Below are positions 5,436 through 58,059 of a DNA stretch of 64,000 nt, piece after piece. The DNA is taken from contig OX597816.1 of NCBI GenBank assembly GCA_951406725.2, forward strand, positions 61,070,001 to 61,134,000, given 5' to 3'. The stretch's first letter is position 1; every line of letters begins with the position of its first letter. Both the position numbers and the translations under genes were made by a program. Source of the DNA: Octopus vulgaris (taxonomy: Eukaryota). Under the pieces are notes generated by a model. It saw nothing but the letters and a program-made list of their open reading frames with translations, made no database searches and was not told the origin of the DNA.

Positions 5436-5507
5436 TGCGTCGGCCGGGAGTCGAACCCGGATCGACTGCTTGGAAGGCAACCATGCTAACCGTTACACCA
5501 CCGACGC
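5436..5507 (-). tRNA. trnG-TCC: tRNA-Gly(TCC), intact
   Basis: Exact reverse complement of 2850-2921; A-run at 5413-5433 is the T terminator on the minus strand. Confidence 0.97.
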
Positions 5508-13492: not shown

Positions 13493-13820
13493 GCCCTCGA
13501 CTCGGACGAGACTACCCGCCGTACTTAAGCATATCGCTAAGCTGAGGAAAAGAAACCAGCCGGAATTCCCTAAGTAAGTAACGGCGAGTGAACCGGGAGA
13601 AGCCCAACGCCATATTTCGTCGGCCGCGCCGGTCGTCGAGAGCTGTGGCGCAAGGGTCGTACACGGTCGATCGTTTCGCCCGGCTAAGTTCGGAGTCCCC
13701 TCGATCGGGGCTGCTCAGAGCGGGTGCCAGGCCCATTCGGAACCGGCGGCGATCGGCGGTGTTCATCGACCCCGAGAGTCGGGTTGCTTGGGAACGCAGC
13801 CCAAAGCGAGTGGTAGGCTC
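13493..13820 (+). pseudogene. 28S: orphan 28S rRNA 5' fragment
   Basis: ACCCGCCGTACTTAAGCATATCGCTAAGCTGAGGAAAAGAAACC...GTAACGGCGAGTGAA...GAGTCGGGTTGCTTGGGAACGCAGCCCAAAGCG match conserved LSU 5'/D1 motifs; GC-rich island with no 5.8S or 18S nearby. Confidence 0.9.
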
Positions 13821-14033
13821 TTAGAAGGTCAAAAGAGCGCACTGAATAATAAAAAGACTTTTTAAGATCTACTACTCAAGTATGCCATTGCCATTTCAAA
13901 CCTTTAGCGCTTCATAGCATGAACAAATATGTGCGATTAACTAATGATTGTTACGTACTCTCTACTGCAAATAATAAGTTTATGAAACATCTAAGATGTG
14001 AAAGACAAGGATGTGGTGGTGGGAGGTAACAAA

Positions 14034-14105
14034 TACGTCGACTGAGAGTCGAAACCGGATCGACTGCTTGGAAGGTAACCATGATAACCATTACACCACC
14101 AACGC
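14034..14105 (-). pseudogene. tRNA-Gly(TCC) pseudogene
   Basis: 72-nt copy with 9 substitutions versus the intact genes, hitting the acceptor stem, T arm and B box; no T terminator. Confidence 0.88.
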
Positions 14106-14251
14106 TTCATTGTCGATGACGATTGAATTTAATCTTAATTTACTTAAAAATACATCATGTTATTTTGAATGTTTTCGCTGAAATTAACTGTTTCTGTTTT
14201 TGTCAAACTTTGGCAAAAGTTATGGCTTATGGCCATAATGAATGTGTGTGT

Positions 14252-14300
<49 letters not shown>

Positions 14301-14464
14301 AGAAGATTGGGTGCGCGCGCATCTGTGAATGTGTTCAAGTAGCCTACTGTATGTTCTCAATACTCTTTATTATAATATGTATGCGCCGTGACCAATATAC
14401 AAAGAAATATTCTTAAAACAGTAGCTTCTTCTTTTTCTTCTGCTGGATTTTTCAGTTTGTTTAA

Positions 14465-14792
14465 GAACCTTTTACACCTGATGTCTTCGTAGACAACATT
14501 TCTGACTGCTCTTTCTGACACGTGGAGATCTTTTGCAATTCACCTCATGGACTTTCTGAGATTGCAATGAATGGTCTGTTGAACTTGCTGGATAAATTCA
14601 AGTGATCTGATGATTTCAGAGCGTTTAGAATGCTCTTTATTCTTTGATACTGGTGATACACTTCCATCTTCAGTCTCTAACTCCTTACAAACTTTGTAGA
14701 CGAAAGATGTGGCAACTTTTAAAAATCAAGATATTTCTAAATCACCCAGCCTTTATAACCACAATAACAGCATGCCTATTCGTTTCTTGAGT
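14465..14792 (-). mobile_element. Tc1/mariner (maT/DD37D-like) transposase N-terminal relic
   Basis: Translates with stops and a frameshift as NRHAVIVVIKA..DLEIS*FLKVATSFVYKV..LEFIQQVQQTIHCNLRKSMR*IAKDLHVSERAVRNVVYEDI (paired HTH pattern). Confidence 0.65.
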
Positions 14793-15097: not shown

Positions 15098-15169
15098 TGC
15101 GTCGGCCGGGAGTCGAACCCGGATCGACTGCTTGGAAGGCAACCATGCTAACCGTTACACCACCGACGC
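15098..15169 (-). tRNA. trnG-TCC: tRNA-Gly(TCC), intact
   Basis: Exact reverse complement of 2850-2921; A-run at about 15080-15088 is the terminator. Confidence 0.97.
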
Positions 15170-49371: not shown

Positions 49372-49686
49372 AGACAGATGATGTAATCTGGGATACGTTG
49401 GATAAAGCCTGAAAATAATGCGAAAGCACGAACTTAACCTGGGGCGGAATGACAATAACTAGCGAGAATCCAGTGCTGATATAATAGCTAGTAACCAGCT
49501 AGATTTTATGAAATAAATTTGATAATAAAGCTGTCGACCCAGATATGGATATGCCCAATAATGGTCAAATCCCGTCGTATGAAGTTTATTTTGGTCTATG
49601 TATTCGCTTGTGACTAAGAAAGCAGCAGCGACAGTAATAGCTTAACTCGACAATAAGTTGAGATGAACAGTGGTCAGGATATGAGG

Positions 49687-49702
49687 GGCCCTTAAAAGGG
49701 CC
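49687..49702 (-). terminator. histone 3' stem-loop (H2B)
   Basis: GGCCCT-TTTA-AGGGCC on the minus strand, 27 nt after the stop codon. Confidence 0.93.
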
Positions 49703-49729
49703 ATTTGGGTTTTCGAATACGAGGAAGAT

Positions 49730-50101
49730 TTACTTGGTGCTGGTGTATTTTGTGACAGCTTTCGTACCTTCAGAGACAGCGTGTTTGGCCAACTCACCAG
49801 GGAGGAGAAGACGGACAGCGGTCTGGACCTCACGACTGCTGATAGTTGAACGTTTGTTGTAGTGAGCTAAACGGCTGGCCTCATTAGCGATTCTTTCGAA
49901 CAGATCGTTAACAAAGCTGTTCATGATGGACATAGCTTTGCTCGAGATGCCAGTATCAGGATGGACTTGCTTCATGACTTTGTAGATGTAGATAGAATAA
50001 CTTTCCTTCCTCTTCCTCTTCCTCTTCTTGTCTCCAGTACGAGGGACTTTAGATTTGGACGCCTTTTTGGCTCCTTTGACGGGTGTTGGTGTAGGTGGCA
50101 T
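49730..50101 (-). CDS. H2B: histone H2B (replication-dependent)
   Basis: 123 aa, [26 protein letters not shown]...AVTKYTSTK; intronless; 3' stem-loop. Confidence 0.99.
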
Positions 50102-50369
50102 GATTGAATGCGAGATTCGATGCGAAGTTACAATACCACCAAGTTTACTCTATTTATAGCTGACAAGTAGGCTCACCGGACAAGGAACACCAAACAGTTT
50201 GGCGCGTTTTAATCTCATTGGTGGAAATTGACATAAGCAATAATCACATGATAATGGTGAGAAAAATAATTTTTACTAACTGCTGGAGCCTATAGAAGCC
50301 TATATAAAGGTAGATTTCCCACATAAGCTCACTGCACACTTATTTAAGCGATCTTCATTCTGTATAACT
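50102..50369. promoter_or_regulatory. bidirectional H2B/H2A promoter
   Basis: TATAAATAG on the minus strand at about 50150-50158, E2F-type TTTGGCGC 50198-50205, ATTGG at about 50217, ATCACATGAT 50243-50252, TATATAAA at 50301. Confidence 0.75.
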
Positions 50370-50747
50370 ATGTCTGCGCGTGGAAAAGGAGGCAAAGTGA
50401 AAGGAAAGAGCAAGACTCGATCATCTCGTGCTGGACTTCAATTCCCTGTAGGCCGTATCCACCGTCTTCTCCGTAAAGGAAACTATGCCGAGCGAATTGG
50501 CGCCGGAGCTCCAGTCTACCTAGCAGCTGTAATGGAATATTTAGCTGCTGAAGTGTTGGAGTTGGCTGGAAATGCTGCCAGAGACAACAAGAAATCTAGA
50601 ATCATTCCGCGTCACTTGCAGTTAGCCATTCGCAACGACGAAGAATTGAACAAACTTTTGTCAGGTGTTACTATCTCGCAGGGTGGCGTCCTTCCCAACA
50701 TCCAAGCAGTTCTTCTTCCCAAGAAGACCCAGAAAGCCTCTAAGTAA
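50370..50747 (+). CDS. H2A: histone H2A (replication-dependent)
   Basis: 125 aa, [22 protein letters not shown]...LLPKKT; no C-terminal SQ(E/D)Y so not H2A.X; 3' stem-loop. Confidence 0.99.
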
Positions 50748-50777
50748 ACATTTTGGTTTCTTAGTAATATTATTAAA

Positions 50778-50793
50778 GGTCCTTTTTAGGGCC
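50778..50793 (+). terminator. histone 3' stem-loop (H2A)
   Basis: GGTCCT-TTTT-AGGGCC. Confidence 0.9.
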
Positions 50794-50989
50794 ATTAACA
50801 TTTAAGTATCGTCATTCTCAACTGATTATTCAAGAAAACGATTCTAAAGATACCCGAAGTAAACCGTTTGCAGTTTATCGTACTGGACATTTTCAGCCCA
50901 ACCAGTTGGTGCTAAGTCCAATTGAACAGGTTCATTTACCATTCAAGTCTCGTCTTAGGTCGCTTTGTAACGGCATTACAAATATATAT

Positions 50990-51218
50990 ATTTCTTTACT
51001 ACCCACAAGGGGCCAAACACAGAGGGGACAAACAAGGACAGACAAAGAGATCAAGTCGATTACATCGACCCCAGTGCGTAACTGGTACTTAATATATCGA
51101 CCCCGAAAGGATGAAAGGCAAAGTCGACCTCGGCGGAACTTGAACTCGGAACGTAAGGACAGATGAAATACGGCTACGCATTTCGCCCGGTGTGCTAACG
51201 TTTCTACCAGCTCGCCGC
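50990..51218 (-). mobile_element. family B SINE
   Basis: Complete monomer. Confidence 0.85.
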
Positions 51219-52286
51219 ATAAACGTAGCAACTATGCTGTAATTTTGAATCTATTTTGCCCACTCAGAAAGATTAATACCCATCTTTTCCTGGGAATTTA
51301 TCCTCAGATGAAAACCGTGACAACAGATTGTAACTACACTAAAGGAGCCCAAATATATTGCCAGAGAAGTCATAAACTTTGAGTTTTCCATATAGGAATT
51401 TATTTTCCATCTGTCATAAATAGTATCCTTAAAATGTACAATGTCTGGTCCGAAAATGTTTTAGATATGTAAAATGCTCATCTTGGAGTACACACACACT
51501 ACACTGAAAAAATAAATACCGCAATACTCCGGCCATAACCGTTGAAACAATTTTAAAGATGAAGATTAAAAAAAGAGACAGAAATTTCAATATTTTTATA
51601 AAATTCACCGTGGTGAAGAAAGAATACAGATACAACCTGTTTTGTTTTAAACAGTGAAGATACACAAAATATCTCATTTTGGAGATGTCGCCCTTCTCTT
51701 TTGTAGAAATAGTTACCCACGAGTCTGAGGCGTCAAGTTAATGCAGAGATAATAAATAGGTTTGTGACGCCTAAGCCTTCGAAGCGACGTCGCTATTTGA
51801 TCAAACCAATTGTAGCTTGAGTTTCATACAGGCGTAAGGAAGGCCACATTAAAAAATTTTTAATGCACATAAATATCTTACATTAATTACGAAATTTTAA
51901 TTATAAAGTAAGAAATAAATAAGTAAACTAACCTTTAAATGACATTTAATGAATAAATATTAACATTGTAATCAACGGGAATATTTTTATACAAAATCCA
52001 GATTTGAGTTGGCAGATTCTCCTTGAGACAGGTTAGTTTTTTCCCTGCCAGTCGATCGCGTTTGGCTGGCGACAGTTTGACGCATTGAAATAAAGCCTTT
52101 GAAAAATAGAACACTAGCAGAGGTCAAGCATTTTCTTTACCAAGTAGTAGACTTCTTAGACCCAGATATATTTCATAGATAAAGTTAATCTATGCGATAA
52201 GTGGTTCAGCTACTTTTTTTTCACATACGCAACTTGCAGGGTGGGAGTGTGAAGTTTGTATTGCATATGATTAACATCTGTAAATG

Positions 52287-52328
<42 letters not shown>

Positions 52329-52884
52329 AATAATAATAATAAATGATACGTGCAGAATTAAGTAGGGTGAATGACGACATTTTTTCACACATTCACACGT
52401 AAAGTGGTTTGGACACTTTATGAAACGTGCTTAGAAAATTACATTGTAATAATAATAACGCGAGTTATTTTCAGCTTTTCAGTTAATTCCTATGATCAGG
52501 GAGTAGGGTGAGCAAAATCGCATTTTCCTTATTGAATTTGCCAACTCCGGTGGTTCTTTCTAATGTAGGAGACATTGGAAATAAAACGCATTTTGGTCAG
52601 AAACTGGGATTGTAAATAGATTAGCTAAATTGTTCTTTTATTGCAGTTCTATTCACATTTTTGGAGCCTTATGGAAATATTAAATCTATCCGACTTCACT
52701 GGTAAATGATCATATTTTCCAACTGTGACTATTCTGTCTTCATTTTCTGTCAAGGTATACACTAAGACTAGGGGCTCACCAACTAATTTTACTCGGAATC
52801 CGTTATATGATTTTCAAAAAATCACAAAACCCACCGTCATCCTAATTTCAAGACCTTATCTGAAATAAAAATTATTTTTGAAAT

Positions 52885-53275
52885 TGGCTGTGTGGTAAGT
52901 AGCTTGTTTACCAACCACATGGTTCCGGGTTCAGTCCCAGTGCGTGGCACCTTGGGCAAGTGTCTTCTACTATAGCTTCGGGCCGACCAATGCCTTGTGA
53001 GTGGATTTGGTAGACGGAAACTGAAAGAGCCCGTCGTATATATGTATATATATATATGCGTGTGTGTGTTTATGTGTCTGTGTTTGTCCCCCTAGCATTG
53101 CTTGACAACCGATGCTGGTGTATTTATGTCCCCGTTACTTAGCGGTTCGGCAAAAGAGACTGATAGAATAAGTACTGGGCTTACAAAAGAATAAGTCCCG
53201 GGATCGAGTTGCTCGATTAAAAGGCGGTGCTCCAGTATGGCCGCAGTCAAATGACTGAAACAAATAAAAGAGAGT
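52885..53275 (+). mobile_element. family A SINE
   Basis: Tail-to-tail with the next copy. Confidence 0.88.
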
Positions 53276-53280
53276 ATATA

Positions 53281-53670
53281 CTCTTTTACTTGTTTCAGTC
53301 ATTTGACTGCGGCCATGCTGGAGCCACGCCTTTAATCGAGCAACTCGACCCCAGGACTTATTCTTTTGTAAGCCCAGTACTTATTCTGTCGGTCTGTTTT
53401 GCCGAACCGCTAAGTAACGGGAATATAAACACACCAGCATCGGTTGTCAAGCAATGCTAGGGGGACAGACACACAAACACACACACGCACATACATATAA
53501 ATACATATATACGACGGGCTTCTTTCAGTTTCCGTCTACCAAATCCACTCACAAGGCTTTGGTCGGCCCGAGGCTATAGTAGAAGACACTTGCCCAAAGT
53601 GCCACGCAGTGGGACTGAACCCGGAACCATGTGGTTGGTAAACAAGCTATTTACCATACAGCCGCTCCTG
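53281..53670 (-). mobile_element. family A SINE
   Basis: Reverse copy about 5 bp from the tail of the previous one. Confidence 0.88.
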
Positions 53671-53674
53671 ATAT

Positions 53675-53708
<34 letters not shown>

Positions 53709-53759
53709 ATATACATACATACATATATACATACATACATACATATATACATATATACA

Positions 53760-53791
<32 letters not shown>

Positions 53792-53828
53792 CATACATAT
53801 ATACATATATATATACATACATATATAT

Positions 53829-53861
<33 letters not shown>

Positions 53862-53893
53862 ACAAAGTTGAGTTGTGGGGTATCGCACGAGTG

Positions 53894-53929
<36 letters not shown>

Positions 53930-54086
53930 CATTAAATTGAATAATGGTGGAAAGCATTGGGTTTATAAAATAAATCTTTATTCAACTTTATCACTCGAAA
54001 CCCCGGGATTTTTTCACAGAACCCACTTTGAGAATCCTTTTGCTAGACTACATCATCTAATAAATTAATTAAGACGATATGTCGTC

Positions 54087-56241
54087 TTTTTAGGGAGAAT
54101 TTGGCTGCTGTTTCTAGCAAGTTGAACTACCCTTGAAATGTCGCTTGTATTATTTGACTTTTTGGGAGGAAGAGCGTAATTTAACACAATCCTATCCATT
54201 ACGAAGAAAAAGATATTGATAAATATCTCTTAGAAGTGCATTATTTTATTAGTACTGTTTCTTGAAGGCGGCGAGCTGGGAGAAATGTTTAGCGGCATTT
54301 CGTCTGTCTTTGCGTTCTGAGTTCACGTTCCGCTGAGATCAATTTAACCATTTGATGAGCGATTAAATAAGTACCATTTGCGTCCTGGGATCGATATCAT
54401 CAACTTACTTAAATCCCCCAAAATTTCAGGATTGTGCTTAAAACACAAAGCATTATCAGTGCCGTTTCTTTTACTTCTGCTAAAAATTGAATAATAGCTC
54501 AAGAAGAAATCTTTTAAATCCTTCAAACACGGCGCCAATACTTGATTAAAGAATGCAATGTTGCTTAACCCCAAGTCAGCCTATATCCTGCAAACGTCTC
54601 GAAAGGATACGGACGGGACCATCCTGTCTTCTTAGGGACTTTAGGACTACATTAACGTGTCCTTCCCTTTTCTAAAAGCAGTATTATGTAACCTGGCTGC
54701 TATTTCTCGCCCGTATGATAAATACAACTGTCAATGACAGTTGGTGCAGAAAGCGGGCGTGAATGTAAAGAAAGAATTACTTTCTTCTGCGCTTACTGAA
54801 CTGAACTTACGAAGTTTGGGCGCTTCTCCTTTGTTATTTCACATTTCAATCTTTGTCTCACAATTCTTTAAAAAAAGATCTTAGATATTTTCTTTTCTTT
54901 TCTTTTTTTTTTTTTTTGCATCTAATGATAAATATCTAAACTTCAGAAACGTTAAGATTGATTTCATTTCATTTTGAAATGAAAGCAAATAACAAATAAA
55001 AATTTACCAATACTGTTTCCCTCACCGCATATTAGTTTCTACTTTAGTATTTGGTGCTCCCTTAACCAAATTGCTTTCATATTTAGGCACAAAACCAGCA
55101 AATTTACGGTAGGTATCAATCGATTACATCGGCCCCAGTGCTCAGCTGGTACTTATTGTAAATAATATCTAATTGTAACTTATTCTCTGATTGTCTTTGA
55201 TACAAGGCTAGAGAATCTGGTGGAGGGTATTGTTAATTAGCACAAAACCTTAAATATATTAACAAAGGCCAGCTTGGCGCGATTTGGACTTATCAAATAT
55301 TCGCGCCCTTTTAGCCAACAGAAATTACCGGTTCCCAGCTTATTCCTTTTCCAACCACTACTACAGATTATAACCGCCTTGTCTAGAGTGTATTGGTTGC
55401 TAGTTATGTAATGTATATGACATATATTCAACTTTAAATTTTTAACCATCTTCTCACGCCTTCCTTTCTACAATTTTCATCTAATTCCAAAAAGTGAAGT
55501 AATGTTAATTGATCGCATTATTTTCCTTATCACCGTCTAACAAAAACGAGGGTTATATTGAATAATGCGATTCTTTAGTTGCTTCAGCTAATTATAATCC
55601 ATATTTCCATACATACAGTATATGAATTGAAAAGAGGTAGTCACAGTTGGAACGCATTTGATCATAGGTCTGCTTCACTAGGACTTGTCGTTTGCTTGCC
55701 AAACGTTTCATTCTGACAGCTGTTTGTAGTCTCATTGTGCAACAAATTCTTCTCGTCCCACCAAACTCATTTTAATACGAATCCGTATTAAGTGATCTAG
55801 ACATTGTTTTGCGACCGGGTTCTTTTTCTTAGTTACAACAACAGAAAATATTCATTGAGTGGGGAATAAAAAAGCAAGAAATTCACTGGTTTCAGTAAAT
55901 TGGGCTGGAACACCACCTAAAGTTTTTAGTTGAAATTATCGATTCTGTTTAGCAGGGTTAATTTGCTTTTGGCGTAAAGGGGCCTACCATAATATATGCG
56001 AATAATCTATAAAGAAAGGACCACTGACTGATTAGCATCAAGCCGTTAACTGAACCAACTTAGTTGCTCGACCTGCTAGAAATAGCAGCTGTACGTTGTT
56101 GTTTTTTTTAATGAACTTAGGTTCCTTTCACCTGAAAAAGGTAGGATGGTTATGGCTAGAATGTTTTTGTACCACGACTAGCCTCCACCTTTCGAATCTG
56201 ATCCATGCCACTCATGCACCCCTACCCTTATGGTCCATATT
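54087..56241 (-). repeat. right arm of ~2.15-kb inverted segmental duplication
   Basis: Reverse complement of 46447-48588; the ORF track also shows the same MNLGSFHLKKVGW.. peptide on opposite strands. Confidence 0.93.
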
Positions 56242-56798
56242 ATATCCACCACGTCACGAGCTAACCACAAAGCAGTTATCCCAGTTGAGCCTAAGTCAGT
56301 GCTCTTTGATCTAAGGGCGGACTAGGAACCCTTCCTTTACACTAAAAGAAAAAAACTCCATCTACCAAGTTACAATGAAGCTATTAATTTAACTGGCACT
56401 ACAAAAGGGATCGCTTAAGGTGACACGGGGTGGAAACAAAACGTGGAAATTCTTCTCTTTAGTGAAATTCAATTATCTGAAAAAATGTTTTTTTACATCC
56501 GGCCGTACGAAAAACATCTAGATAAAACTTGGTTTTGGATATTTTACCTCATTACTAAAAATTCCACCATACTAATAGCGAAATACCTTTGCTGTAGACA
56601 TGAATGGGTAAACAAGAATACTTAACATGTATACAAATGTTTGCCTCAGTTTGTCATGCGTTTAGGGAAGTGATAAGATTCTAGACAATATATTAATTGC
56701 AAATCATATAGTTCAAGGTTAAAACGCACAGTAAAGTAACAATATAAAGCAAATCTTATTACATGGGTCAGGAGAATGATTAACAATAAAATATAAGT

Positions 56799-56814
56799 GG
56801 CCCTGAAAAGGGCC
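56799..56814 (-). terminator. histone 3' stem-loop (H4)
   Basis: GGCCCT-TTTC-AGGGCC on the minus strand, canonical. Confidence 0.95.
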
Positions 56815-56834: not shown

Positions 56835-57813
<979 letters not shown>

Positions 57814-57838: not shown

Positions 57839-57854
57839 GGCCCTTTCCAGGGCC
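57839..57854 (+). terminator. histone 3' stem-loop (H3)
   Basis: GGCCCT-TTCC-AGGGCC; loop position 3 is C. Confidence 0.88.
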
Positions 57855-58059
57855 ATTTATTTTCTGAGAAAGTGTCCCGCATATTAAGTGATTTGTGATT
57901 TCTAATATATTCTCTAATATACAGTTTACCAAAGGGGTTGTTTTTTTAAAATTCAGAATCCCTATTAATGAATTCTATACGTACGTAAGCAGTTAAGTAA
58001 TCATTGAAATAAAGTTTCTTCGCCTGTTTTGTGCAGGGAGAAGACAATTATTTAGCTTC

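What the first reader, a model, noticed from the sequence alone, without database searches (positions are those of the whole stretch)
49655..56780. Pyrimidine-rich, position-conserved TCAT(T)CTC motif where the histone downstream element would be expected
Seen, reading sense after each stem-loop: H2B has TCATCTCAACT starting at +21, H2A has TCATTCTCAACTGA at +19 and H4 has TCATTCTCCTGA at +20. None of the three has a purine-rich AAAGAG-like element, and the conserved ACCCA-type 3' flank is missing (CCTCA, ATTAA, ACTTA). H3 lacks the motif but has GAGAAAG at about +12. Established: metazoan histone pre-mRNA cleavage uses a purine-rich HDE that pairs with the U7 snRNA 5' end. Inference: this lineage may have a U7 with a compensatory (..GAGAAUGA..) 5' end, or a different 3'-processing signal.
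Basis: partly seen in the sequence, partly recalled or inferred. Interest (0 to 1): 0.7.

Follow-up and report, generated by a model that had tools for sequence, protein, structure and literature searches.

The report
Unusual two-part histone mRNA cutting signal
Behind their end hairpin, the histone genes of this animal carry a fixed-position, two-part signal in place of the textbook purine-rich one, and it likely pairs with a rewritten U7 guide RNA whose gene has not yet been found.

Summary
The motif is there as described, but it is the local form of a looser genome-wide signal. I examined 82 distinct histone 3' flanks (27 clusters; H2A, H2B, H3, H4). None holds AAAGAG, and TCAT(T)CTC occurs only in the window's three genes. 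They share box A (about AAGTCWYCTC, G at +18..+20; 25 of 27 clusters, shuffled mean 5.3), also in window H3. Motifs learned on H3/H4 predict H2A/H2B and the reverse. Box A starts where the mouse HDE core starts, an intact Lsm10 gene is present, and a pyrimidine HDE works in vitro with a compensatory U7. Best reading: a lineage-specific HDE read by a divergent U7, perhaps with a long guide. Six genome searches found no U7 gene, so pairing and cleavage remain inferred. Non-purine flanks are also common in unnamed metagenome contigs, which lowers the surprise. The scan's notes returned no earlier report of this element, only an analogous fixed-distance box in a diatom.

The parts
49730..50101 (-). 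Histone H2B gene, intronless, 123 aa
   Evidence: ORF
49687..49702 (-). H2B 3' stem-loop
49660..49669 (-). H2B box A (+18..+27, TGTTCATCTC); no box B by the rule used
50370..50747 (+). Histone H2A gene, intronless, 125 aa
   Evidence: ORF
50778..50793 (+). H2A 3' stem-loop
50810..50819 (+). H2A box A (+17..+26, CGTCATTCTC); no box B; contigs of three probable RNA runs pass through it
56835..57146 (-). Histone H4 gene, 103 aa
   Evidence: ORF
56799..56814 (-). H4 3' stem-loop
56772..56781 (-). H4 box A-like (+18..+27, AATCATTCTC; lacks the conserved G, so it fails the rule)
56747..56755 (-). H4 box B (GATTTGCTT, +44..+52, unusually far out)
57403..57813 (+). Histone H3 gene, 136 aa
   Evidence: ORF
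57839..57854 (+). H3 3' stem-loop
57870..57879 (+).
57890..57900 (+). H3 box B (GATTTGTGATT, +36..+46)

Best explanation
The motif is the local form of a two-box signal conserved at a fixed distance behind the stem-loop of all four core histone gene types in this genome, and it likely acts as the histone downstream element, pairing with a divergent U7 snRNA that would guide cleavage 4-5 bases after the hairpin. Shown: box A (about AAGTCWYCTC, G at +18..+20), box B (about GATWTGCGAT, +33..+47), no AAAGAG, and an intact Lsm10 gene. Inferred: SLBP binds the hairpin; a U7 with about GAGRWGACU just before its Sm site pairs with box A; a 5'-terminal block of about AAUCGCAWAUC pairs with box B across a bulged spacer (the weaker step, about even odds); CPSF73 cuts after the A at +4/+5.
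For: Box A in 25 of 27 clusters (shuffled mean 5.3, maximum 12 in 5000) and 77 of 82 flanks. The cluster-weighted rate is 0.95 in register and at most 0.39 at 34 other offsets. Box B in 18 of 27 at +28..+50 against 0, 0 and 1 in three control windows, and 18 sense against 1 antisense. Cross-validation between H3/H4 (14 clusters) and H2A/H2B (13): box A z 6.5 and 7.8, box B z 2.6 and 3.3, 0 of 300 shuffles reaching each; far windows z -0.7 to 1.6. The mouse core starts at +17 in the substrate printed in PMC7026596, as box A does. The same paper shows that a UUUCUC core is processed when U7 carries GAGAAA. Lsm10: single-exon 136-aa ORF, best PDB match human LSm10 at E 4.9e-24, next match E 1.2e-7. 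A at +4 or +5 in 82 of 82 flanks.
Against: No U7 gene was found in six genome searches: Rfam model, best 28.7 bits under the cut-off of 34; five patterns with 5, 17, 35, 79 and 28 rows against reversed-pattern controls of 1, 14, 8, 62 and 41, none of the hits examined convincing. Lsm11 was not recognised among 17 LSM matches; SLBP and FLASH were not searched. The two boxes span about 30 bases, twice the roughly 15-base mammalian guide, and their spacing varies from 10 to 27, mostly 19-25. Contigs of probable RNA runs pass through the window H2A hairpin and box A (3 of 6 such runs laid) and, by their loose ends, through two other H2B hairpins, so some transcripts are not cut there. No cleavage site was mapped.
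Confidence: 0.68

Rival explanations
1. Box A is the U7 site, with an ordinary short guide, and box B is a separate site read by a protein of the cleavage or termination machinery.
For: Box B floats (spacing 10-27) and is absent by rule from 9 of 27 clusters. The mammalian guide is about 15 bases. GATATGC occurs at +36 behind purine-rich cores in 2 of 86 metagenome flanks.
Against: Box B is a specific 8-10 base word rather than a U/GU-rich tract, and the two searches that required its complement do not decide the matter. This rival shares box A with the best explanation.
Confidence: 0.15
2. Processing is U7-independent, as proposed for C. elegans: both boxes are read by proteins or by other small RNAs.
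For: No U7 found. C. elegans has its own downstream element, no identified U7 and a CSR-1 route (passages of PMC6509145).
Against: Intact Lsm10. Register matches the mouse HDE. PMC5054213 states that sequence searches fail for U7 outside four known groups, so a blank is expected.
Confidence: 0.1
3. The boxes are DNA-level signals (termination or factor binding), or the genes are mainly polyadenylated and the boxes are relics.
For: Read-through contigs; an AATAAA 508 bases after the start of one such H2B hairpin.
Against: Strict sense orientation and fixed distance to the hairpin rather than to the gene. No AATAAA within 50 bases of any of 82 hairpins. Polyadenylated forms of stem-loop histone genes are known in mammals alongside U7 processing (abstract of PMC5100578).
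Confidence: 0.05
4. Chance, or shared ancestry of duplicated flanks.
For: Many flanks are near-identical copies (82 collapse to 27 clusters); the simple rules were written after seeing the data.
Against: Cross-validation between different histone types; two clusters fetched after the motifs were noted (L123, L125) carry both boxes.
Confidence: 0.02

Closest known systems
Metazoan replication-dependent histone pre-mRNA 3' signal: stem-loop (Rfam RF00032), HDE, SLBP, U7 snRNP (RF00066), Lsm10/Lsm11, CPSF73
   Same: Intronless genes, 16-base hairpin mostly 20-50 bases after the stop, A at +4/+5, conserved element starting at about +17, Lsm10 present.
   Different: No AAAGAG core in 82 flanks; pyrimidine run at +21..+27; a second box at +33..+47; no U7 matching the Rfam model over its cut-off.
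Engineered suppressor pair H2a/Ys pre-mRNA and SupU7 (PMC7026596, passages)
   Same: A pyrimidine HDE core that needs a purine-rich U7 guide.
   Different: Natural rather than engineered; the pyrimidine run starts about four bases later, after a retained AAGT; not tested biochemically.
Drosophila HDE and U7 (PMC7026596, PMC3884669, passages)
   Same: Lineage-specific HDE that is incompatible with mammalian U7.
   Different: The fly HDE is AU-rich with a purine core; here the core is pyrimidine-leaning and split in two.
[quoted passage not shown]
   Same: A lineage-specific downstream element and no identified U7.
   Different: This genome has an intact Lsm10; that nematodes lack it is recalled, not checked here.

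Membership tests
Replication-dependent histone 3' processing signal | Intronless core histone gene with a 6-bp stem and 4-base loop shortly after the stop | tested here: met
   (Rfam matches significant but under the gathering score)
Replication-dependent histone 3' processing signal | Conserved element at a fixed distance after the hairpin | tested here: met
Canonical purine-core HDE | AAAGAG-type purine core | tested here: not met
   AAAGAG and AAGAG in 0 of 82 flanks; purine fraction 0.33 at +18..+27
U7-dependent HDE | A U7 snRNA gene with complementary 5' end, U7-type Sm site and 3' hairpin | tested here: inconclusive
   six searches without a convincing candidate; patterns allowed no mismatches
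U7-dependent HDE | Lsm10 encoded | tested here: met
   L176
U7-dependent HDE | Lsm11 encoded | tested here: inconclusive
   not recognised by eye among 17 LSM exon matches; only L176 was compared with solved structures
U7-dependent HDE | SLBP and FLASH encoded | not tested
   no search made
U7-dependent HDE | Cleavage 4-5 bases after the hairpin, no poly(A) tail | not testable with these tools
   only contigs were served, which cannot show ends

The most novel reading that the evidence does not exclude
This lineage has rewritten both partners of the histone-cutting code: a U7 with a purine-rich guide of about 30 bases that grips two separated boxes, twice the mammalian guide, a natural version of the laboratory suppressor pair. 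The two boxes would then spell out the sequence of a mollusc U7 not found in the papers searched, and weak or missing box B would mark the copies that read through to poly(A) sites.
Probability: 0.3. Interest if true: 0.65.

Novelty: new variant of a known kind. Interest (0 to 1): 0.45.

Why it matters
U7 is described with confidence in only a few animal groups because homology search fails (PMC5054213). [quoted passage not shown] A well-defined non-purine element gives a direct prediction of the U7 5' end and a general route to missing U7 genes: read the HDE first. The second box raises a testable question about guide length and about which histone copies are polyadenylated. The surprise is moderate, since HDE and U7 are known to differ between fly and mouse and many unnamed metagenome contigs also lack a purine core.

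Tried and rejected
U7 searches. Rfam RF00066: 9 matches, none over the cut-off, only 65 candidates scored. Pattern B'+A'+Sm: 5 hits. The best, L072 (G000:C6:8631295), is antisense to both boxes and is followed by an Sm-like ATTTATCTAA; it pairs with one H4 flank at -36 kcal/mol. I rejected it as a functional U7: no 3' hairpin (-0.6 kcal/mol), no promoter match, no gap between guide and Sm-like site, single copy. It may be chance or a U7-derived fragment. Promoter-based patterns: 17 rows, all examined; 35 rows, 30 examined; 79 rows, 77 fetched and the other two a duplicate and one already held. A'+Sm+GG: 28 rows, all examined; L352 has the box B complement upstream but no hairpin or promoter. 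Thirteen 10-kb stretches around U2 and U5 genes held only U2 and U5. U2 pairing with box B: only five bases, rejected. Sequencing runs: no RNA holder on record was listed; all eight runs laid were contigs and the first lay was swamped by repeats. One H2B contig stops at 49707, five bases before the hairpin, in one run only; this is not evidence of the end. Rows dropped: 3 AT-rich non-histone hairpins; one search kept only hairpins with a histone gene just upstream. Davila Lopez and Samuelsson 2008 is not held, so any mollusc HDE or U7 candidate there was not seen.

Full report
Setting. The window lies at G000:C3:61070001-61134000 in a 2.8-Gb animal genome; octopus-like is my inference and no call names the organism. 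It holds one quartet of intronless core histone genes, H2B/H2A and H4/H3 as divergent pairs, each followed by a 16-base stem-loop.

Observation. To test them I fetched the loci of 30 of 36 H4 matches, 30 of 61 H2A matches and twenty 10-kb stretches of histone clusters. These 80 loci gave 82 distinct 50-base flanks behind a hairpin with a histone gene upstream (28 H2A, 16 H2B, 18 H3, 20 H4), which collapse to 27 clusters. This is not every copy in the genome, and H1 was not examined. TCAT(T)CTC occurs in 3 of 82, all in the window; AAAGAG, AAGAG and AATAAA occur in none. ACCCA is the commonest first pentamer (14 of 82) and all 82 have A at +4 or +5.

What is conserved. Box A: G followed by T or C, with the G at +18..+20 (80 of 82), then a pyrimidine run; consensus about AAGTCWYCTC. 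It is present in 25 of 27 cluster representatives against a shuffled mean of 5.3 (maximum 12 in 5000); the cluster-weighted rate is 0.95 in register and at most 0.39 at other offsets. Window H3 has it; window H4 lacks the G. Box B, about GATWTGCGAT, lies at +33..+47: 18 of 27 clusters against 0, 0 and 1 in control windows, 18 sense against 1 antisense, 68 of 82 flanks. These rules were written after seeing the data, so I cross-validated. Motifs learned without supervision on H3/H4 (AAGTnnTCTC, GATATGnTTT) score H2A/H2B at z 6.5 and 2.6; those learned on H2A/H2B (TAGTCnTCTn, nTTTGCGATT) score H3/H4 at z 7.8 and 3.3; 0 of 300 shuffles reach any of these, and far windows give z -0.7 to 1.6. I chose the search windows. 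Window H2A and H2B lack box B.

Mechanism. In mammals the roughly 15-base 5' end of U7 pairs with the HDE, and the cut falls at a fixed distance from it (PMC7026596, passages). In the mouse substrate printed there the core starts at +17, where box A starts. Replacing AAAGAG by UUUCUC nearly abolished processing, and a U7 with GAGAAA restored it to about 80%, so a pyrimidine HDE is workable if U7 changes with it. The genome encodes an intact Lsm10 (L176, G000:C2:151.76 Mb; E 4.9e-24 to human LSm10). I therefore infer a divergent U7 with about GAGRWGACU before its Sm site. Box B is either paired by a 5' extension (guide of about 30 bases, bulged, spacing mostly 19-25) or read by a protein. Neither pairing nor cleavage is shown.

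Search for U7. From U2 and U5 genes I derived a promoter pattern, AATTNANT N24 ATCAGT, matched by 25 of 30 loci, and a CAGAY 3' box. The Rfam model and five exact patterns gave no candidate that has guide, Sm site, hairpin and promoter together. L072 is the most suggestive and was rejected. Each pattern fails on a single mismatch, and PMC5054213 (first two of four parts read) reports that such searches fail outside known groups, so the blank is weak evidence.

RNA. Only contigs were served and their RNA status is a guess. Contigs in 3 of the 6 probable RNA runs laid, from two studies, pass the window H2A hairpin and end at 50863, 50913 and 50969. Loose ends map to two other H2B genes with hairpins (L041, L068), whose contigs appear to extend several hundred bases; L041 has an AATAAA 508 bases on. 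Two of these three read-through genes lack box B and one has it, too few to conclude. Polyadenylated forms of stem-loop histone genes are known in mammals (PMC5100578, abstract).

How unusual. Eighty unnamed metagenome loci with H4 gave 86 hairpins in 47 loci (upstream genes not checked one by one). Of these, 35 of 86 have a purine word in +8..+30 against 3 of 27 here, 14 of 86 pass rule A, none passes both A and B, and 21 of 47 loci have none of six purine words. Divergent downstream elements thus seem widespread, while this pair of boxes was not seen elsewhere in that sample. Five flanks have an AGTCATGA-like word at +15/+16 behind a run of A, a possible intermediate.

Literature. Searches for HDE + U7 snRNA + mollusc, U7 snRNA + octopus and U7 snRN + lophotrochozoa + histone returned 0 papers; searches listed nothing on a cephalopod HDE by title or abstract start. 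A mollusc histone survey has no occurrence of stem-loop, downstream element or U7 (PMC12210499, passages). The 2026 preprint 10.64898/2026.10.14.759114 (passages) calls metazoan HDE regions generally purine-rich and does not mention molluscs; its supplements were not seen and may list cephalopod flanks. PMC3884669, PMC6509145, PMC5011920 and PMC5068929 were seen as passages. Davila Lopez and Samuelsson 2008 was not held. The library lacks most subscription papers.

Verdict. A real, genome-wide, non-canonical two-box downstream signal; it works like an HDE by position, is not a purine-core HDE, and its U7 is unproven. New variant of a known kind, interest 0.45.

Noticed in passing
L072:1500-1540 (G000:C6:8631295): Single-copy stretch antisense to both boxes and followed by an Sm-like word, without hairpin or promoter; chance or a U7-derived fragment.
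   Followed up: partly
L076-L105 (U2 and U5 genes): Shared snRNA promoter pattern AATTNANT N24 ATCAGT about 50-55 bases before the start (25 of 30 loci) and a CAGAY 3' box.
   Followed up: partly
L137:360-760 (G000:C10:3170360): H2A copy with a degenerate hairpin and two AATAAA signals; contigs of three probable RNA runs carry its long 3' region. A candidate polyadenylated replacement H2A.
   Followed up: partly
L135:4250-4305 (-): A histone-like hairpin followed by a perfect box B, with no histone gene upstream, at the end of a broken LINE-like reading frame (by eye) inside a histone cluster.
   Followed up: no
L006:2111, L022:1171 (-): A second hairpin 250-276 bases after the H4 hairpin; in L022 it repeats boxes A and B.
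   Followed up: no
L303, L308, L315, L331; L305, L309: Unnamed metagenome contigs with AAAGTCATGAC-like words at +14..+24, and two with GATATGC at +36 behind purine-rich cores.
   Followed up: partly
window 13515-14525; 2850-2921, 5436-5507, 15098-15169: A degraded large-subunit rRNA fragment and three tRNA-Gly(TCC) copies with the same score.
   Followed up: no
window 57403-57813 and 49730-50101: Window H3 reads SESY where SEAY is usual (recalled), and window H2B shares fewer 5-residue words with the other H2B copies (54-90 against 118 for itself), so this isolated quartet is somewhat divergent.
   Followed up: no
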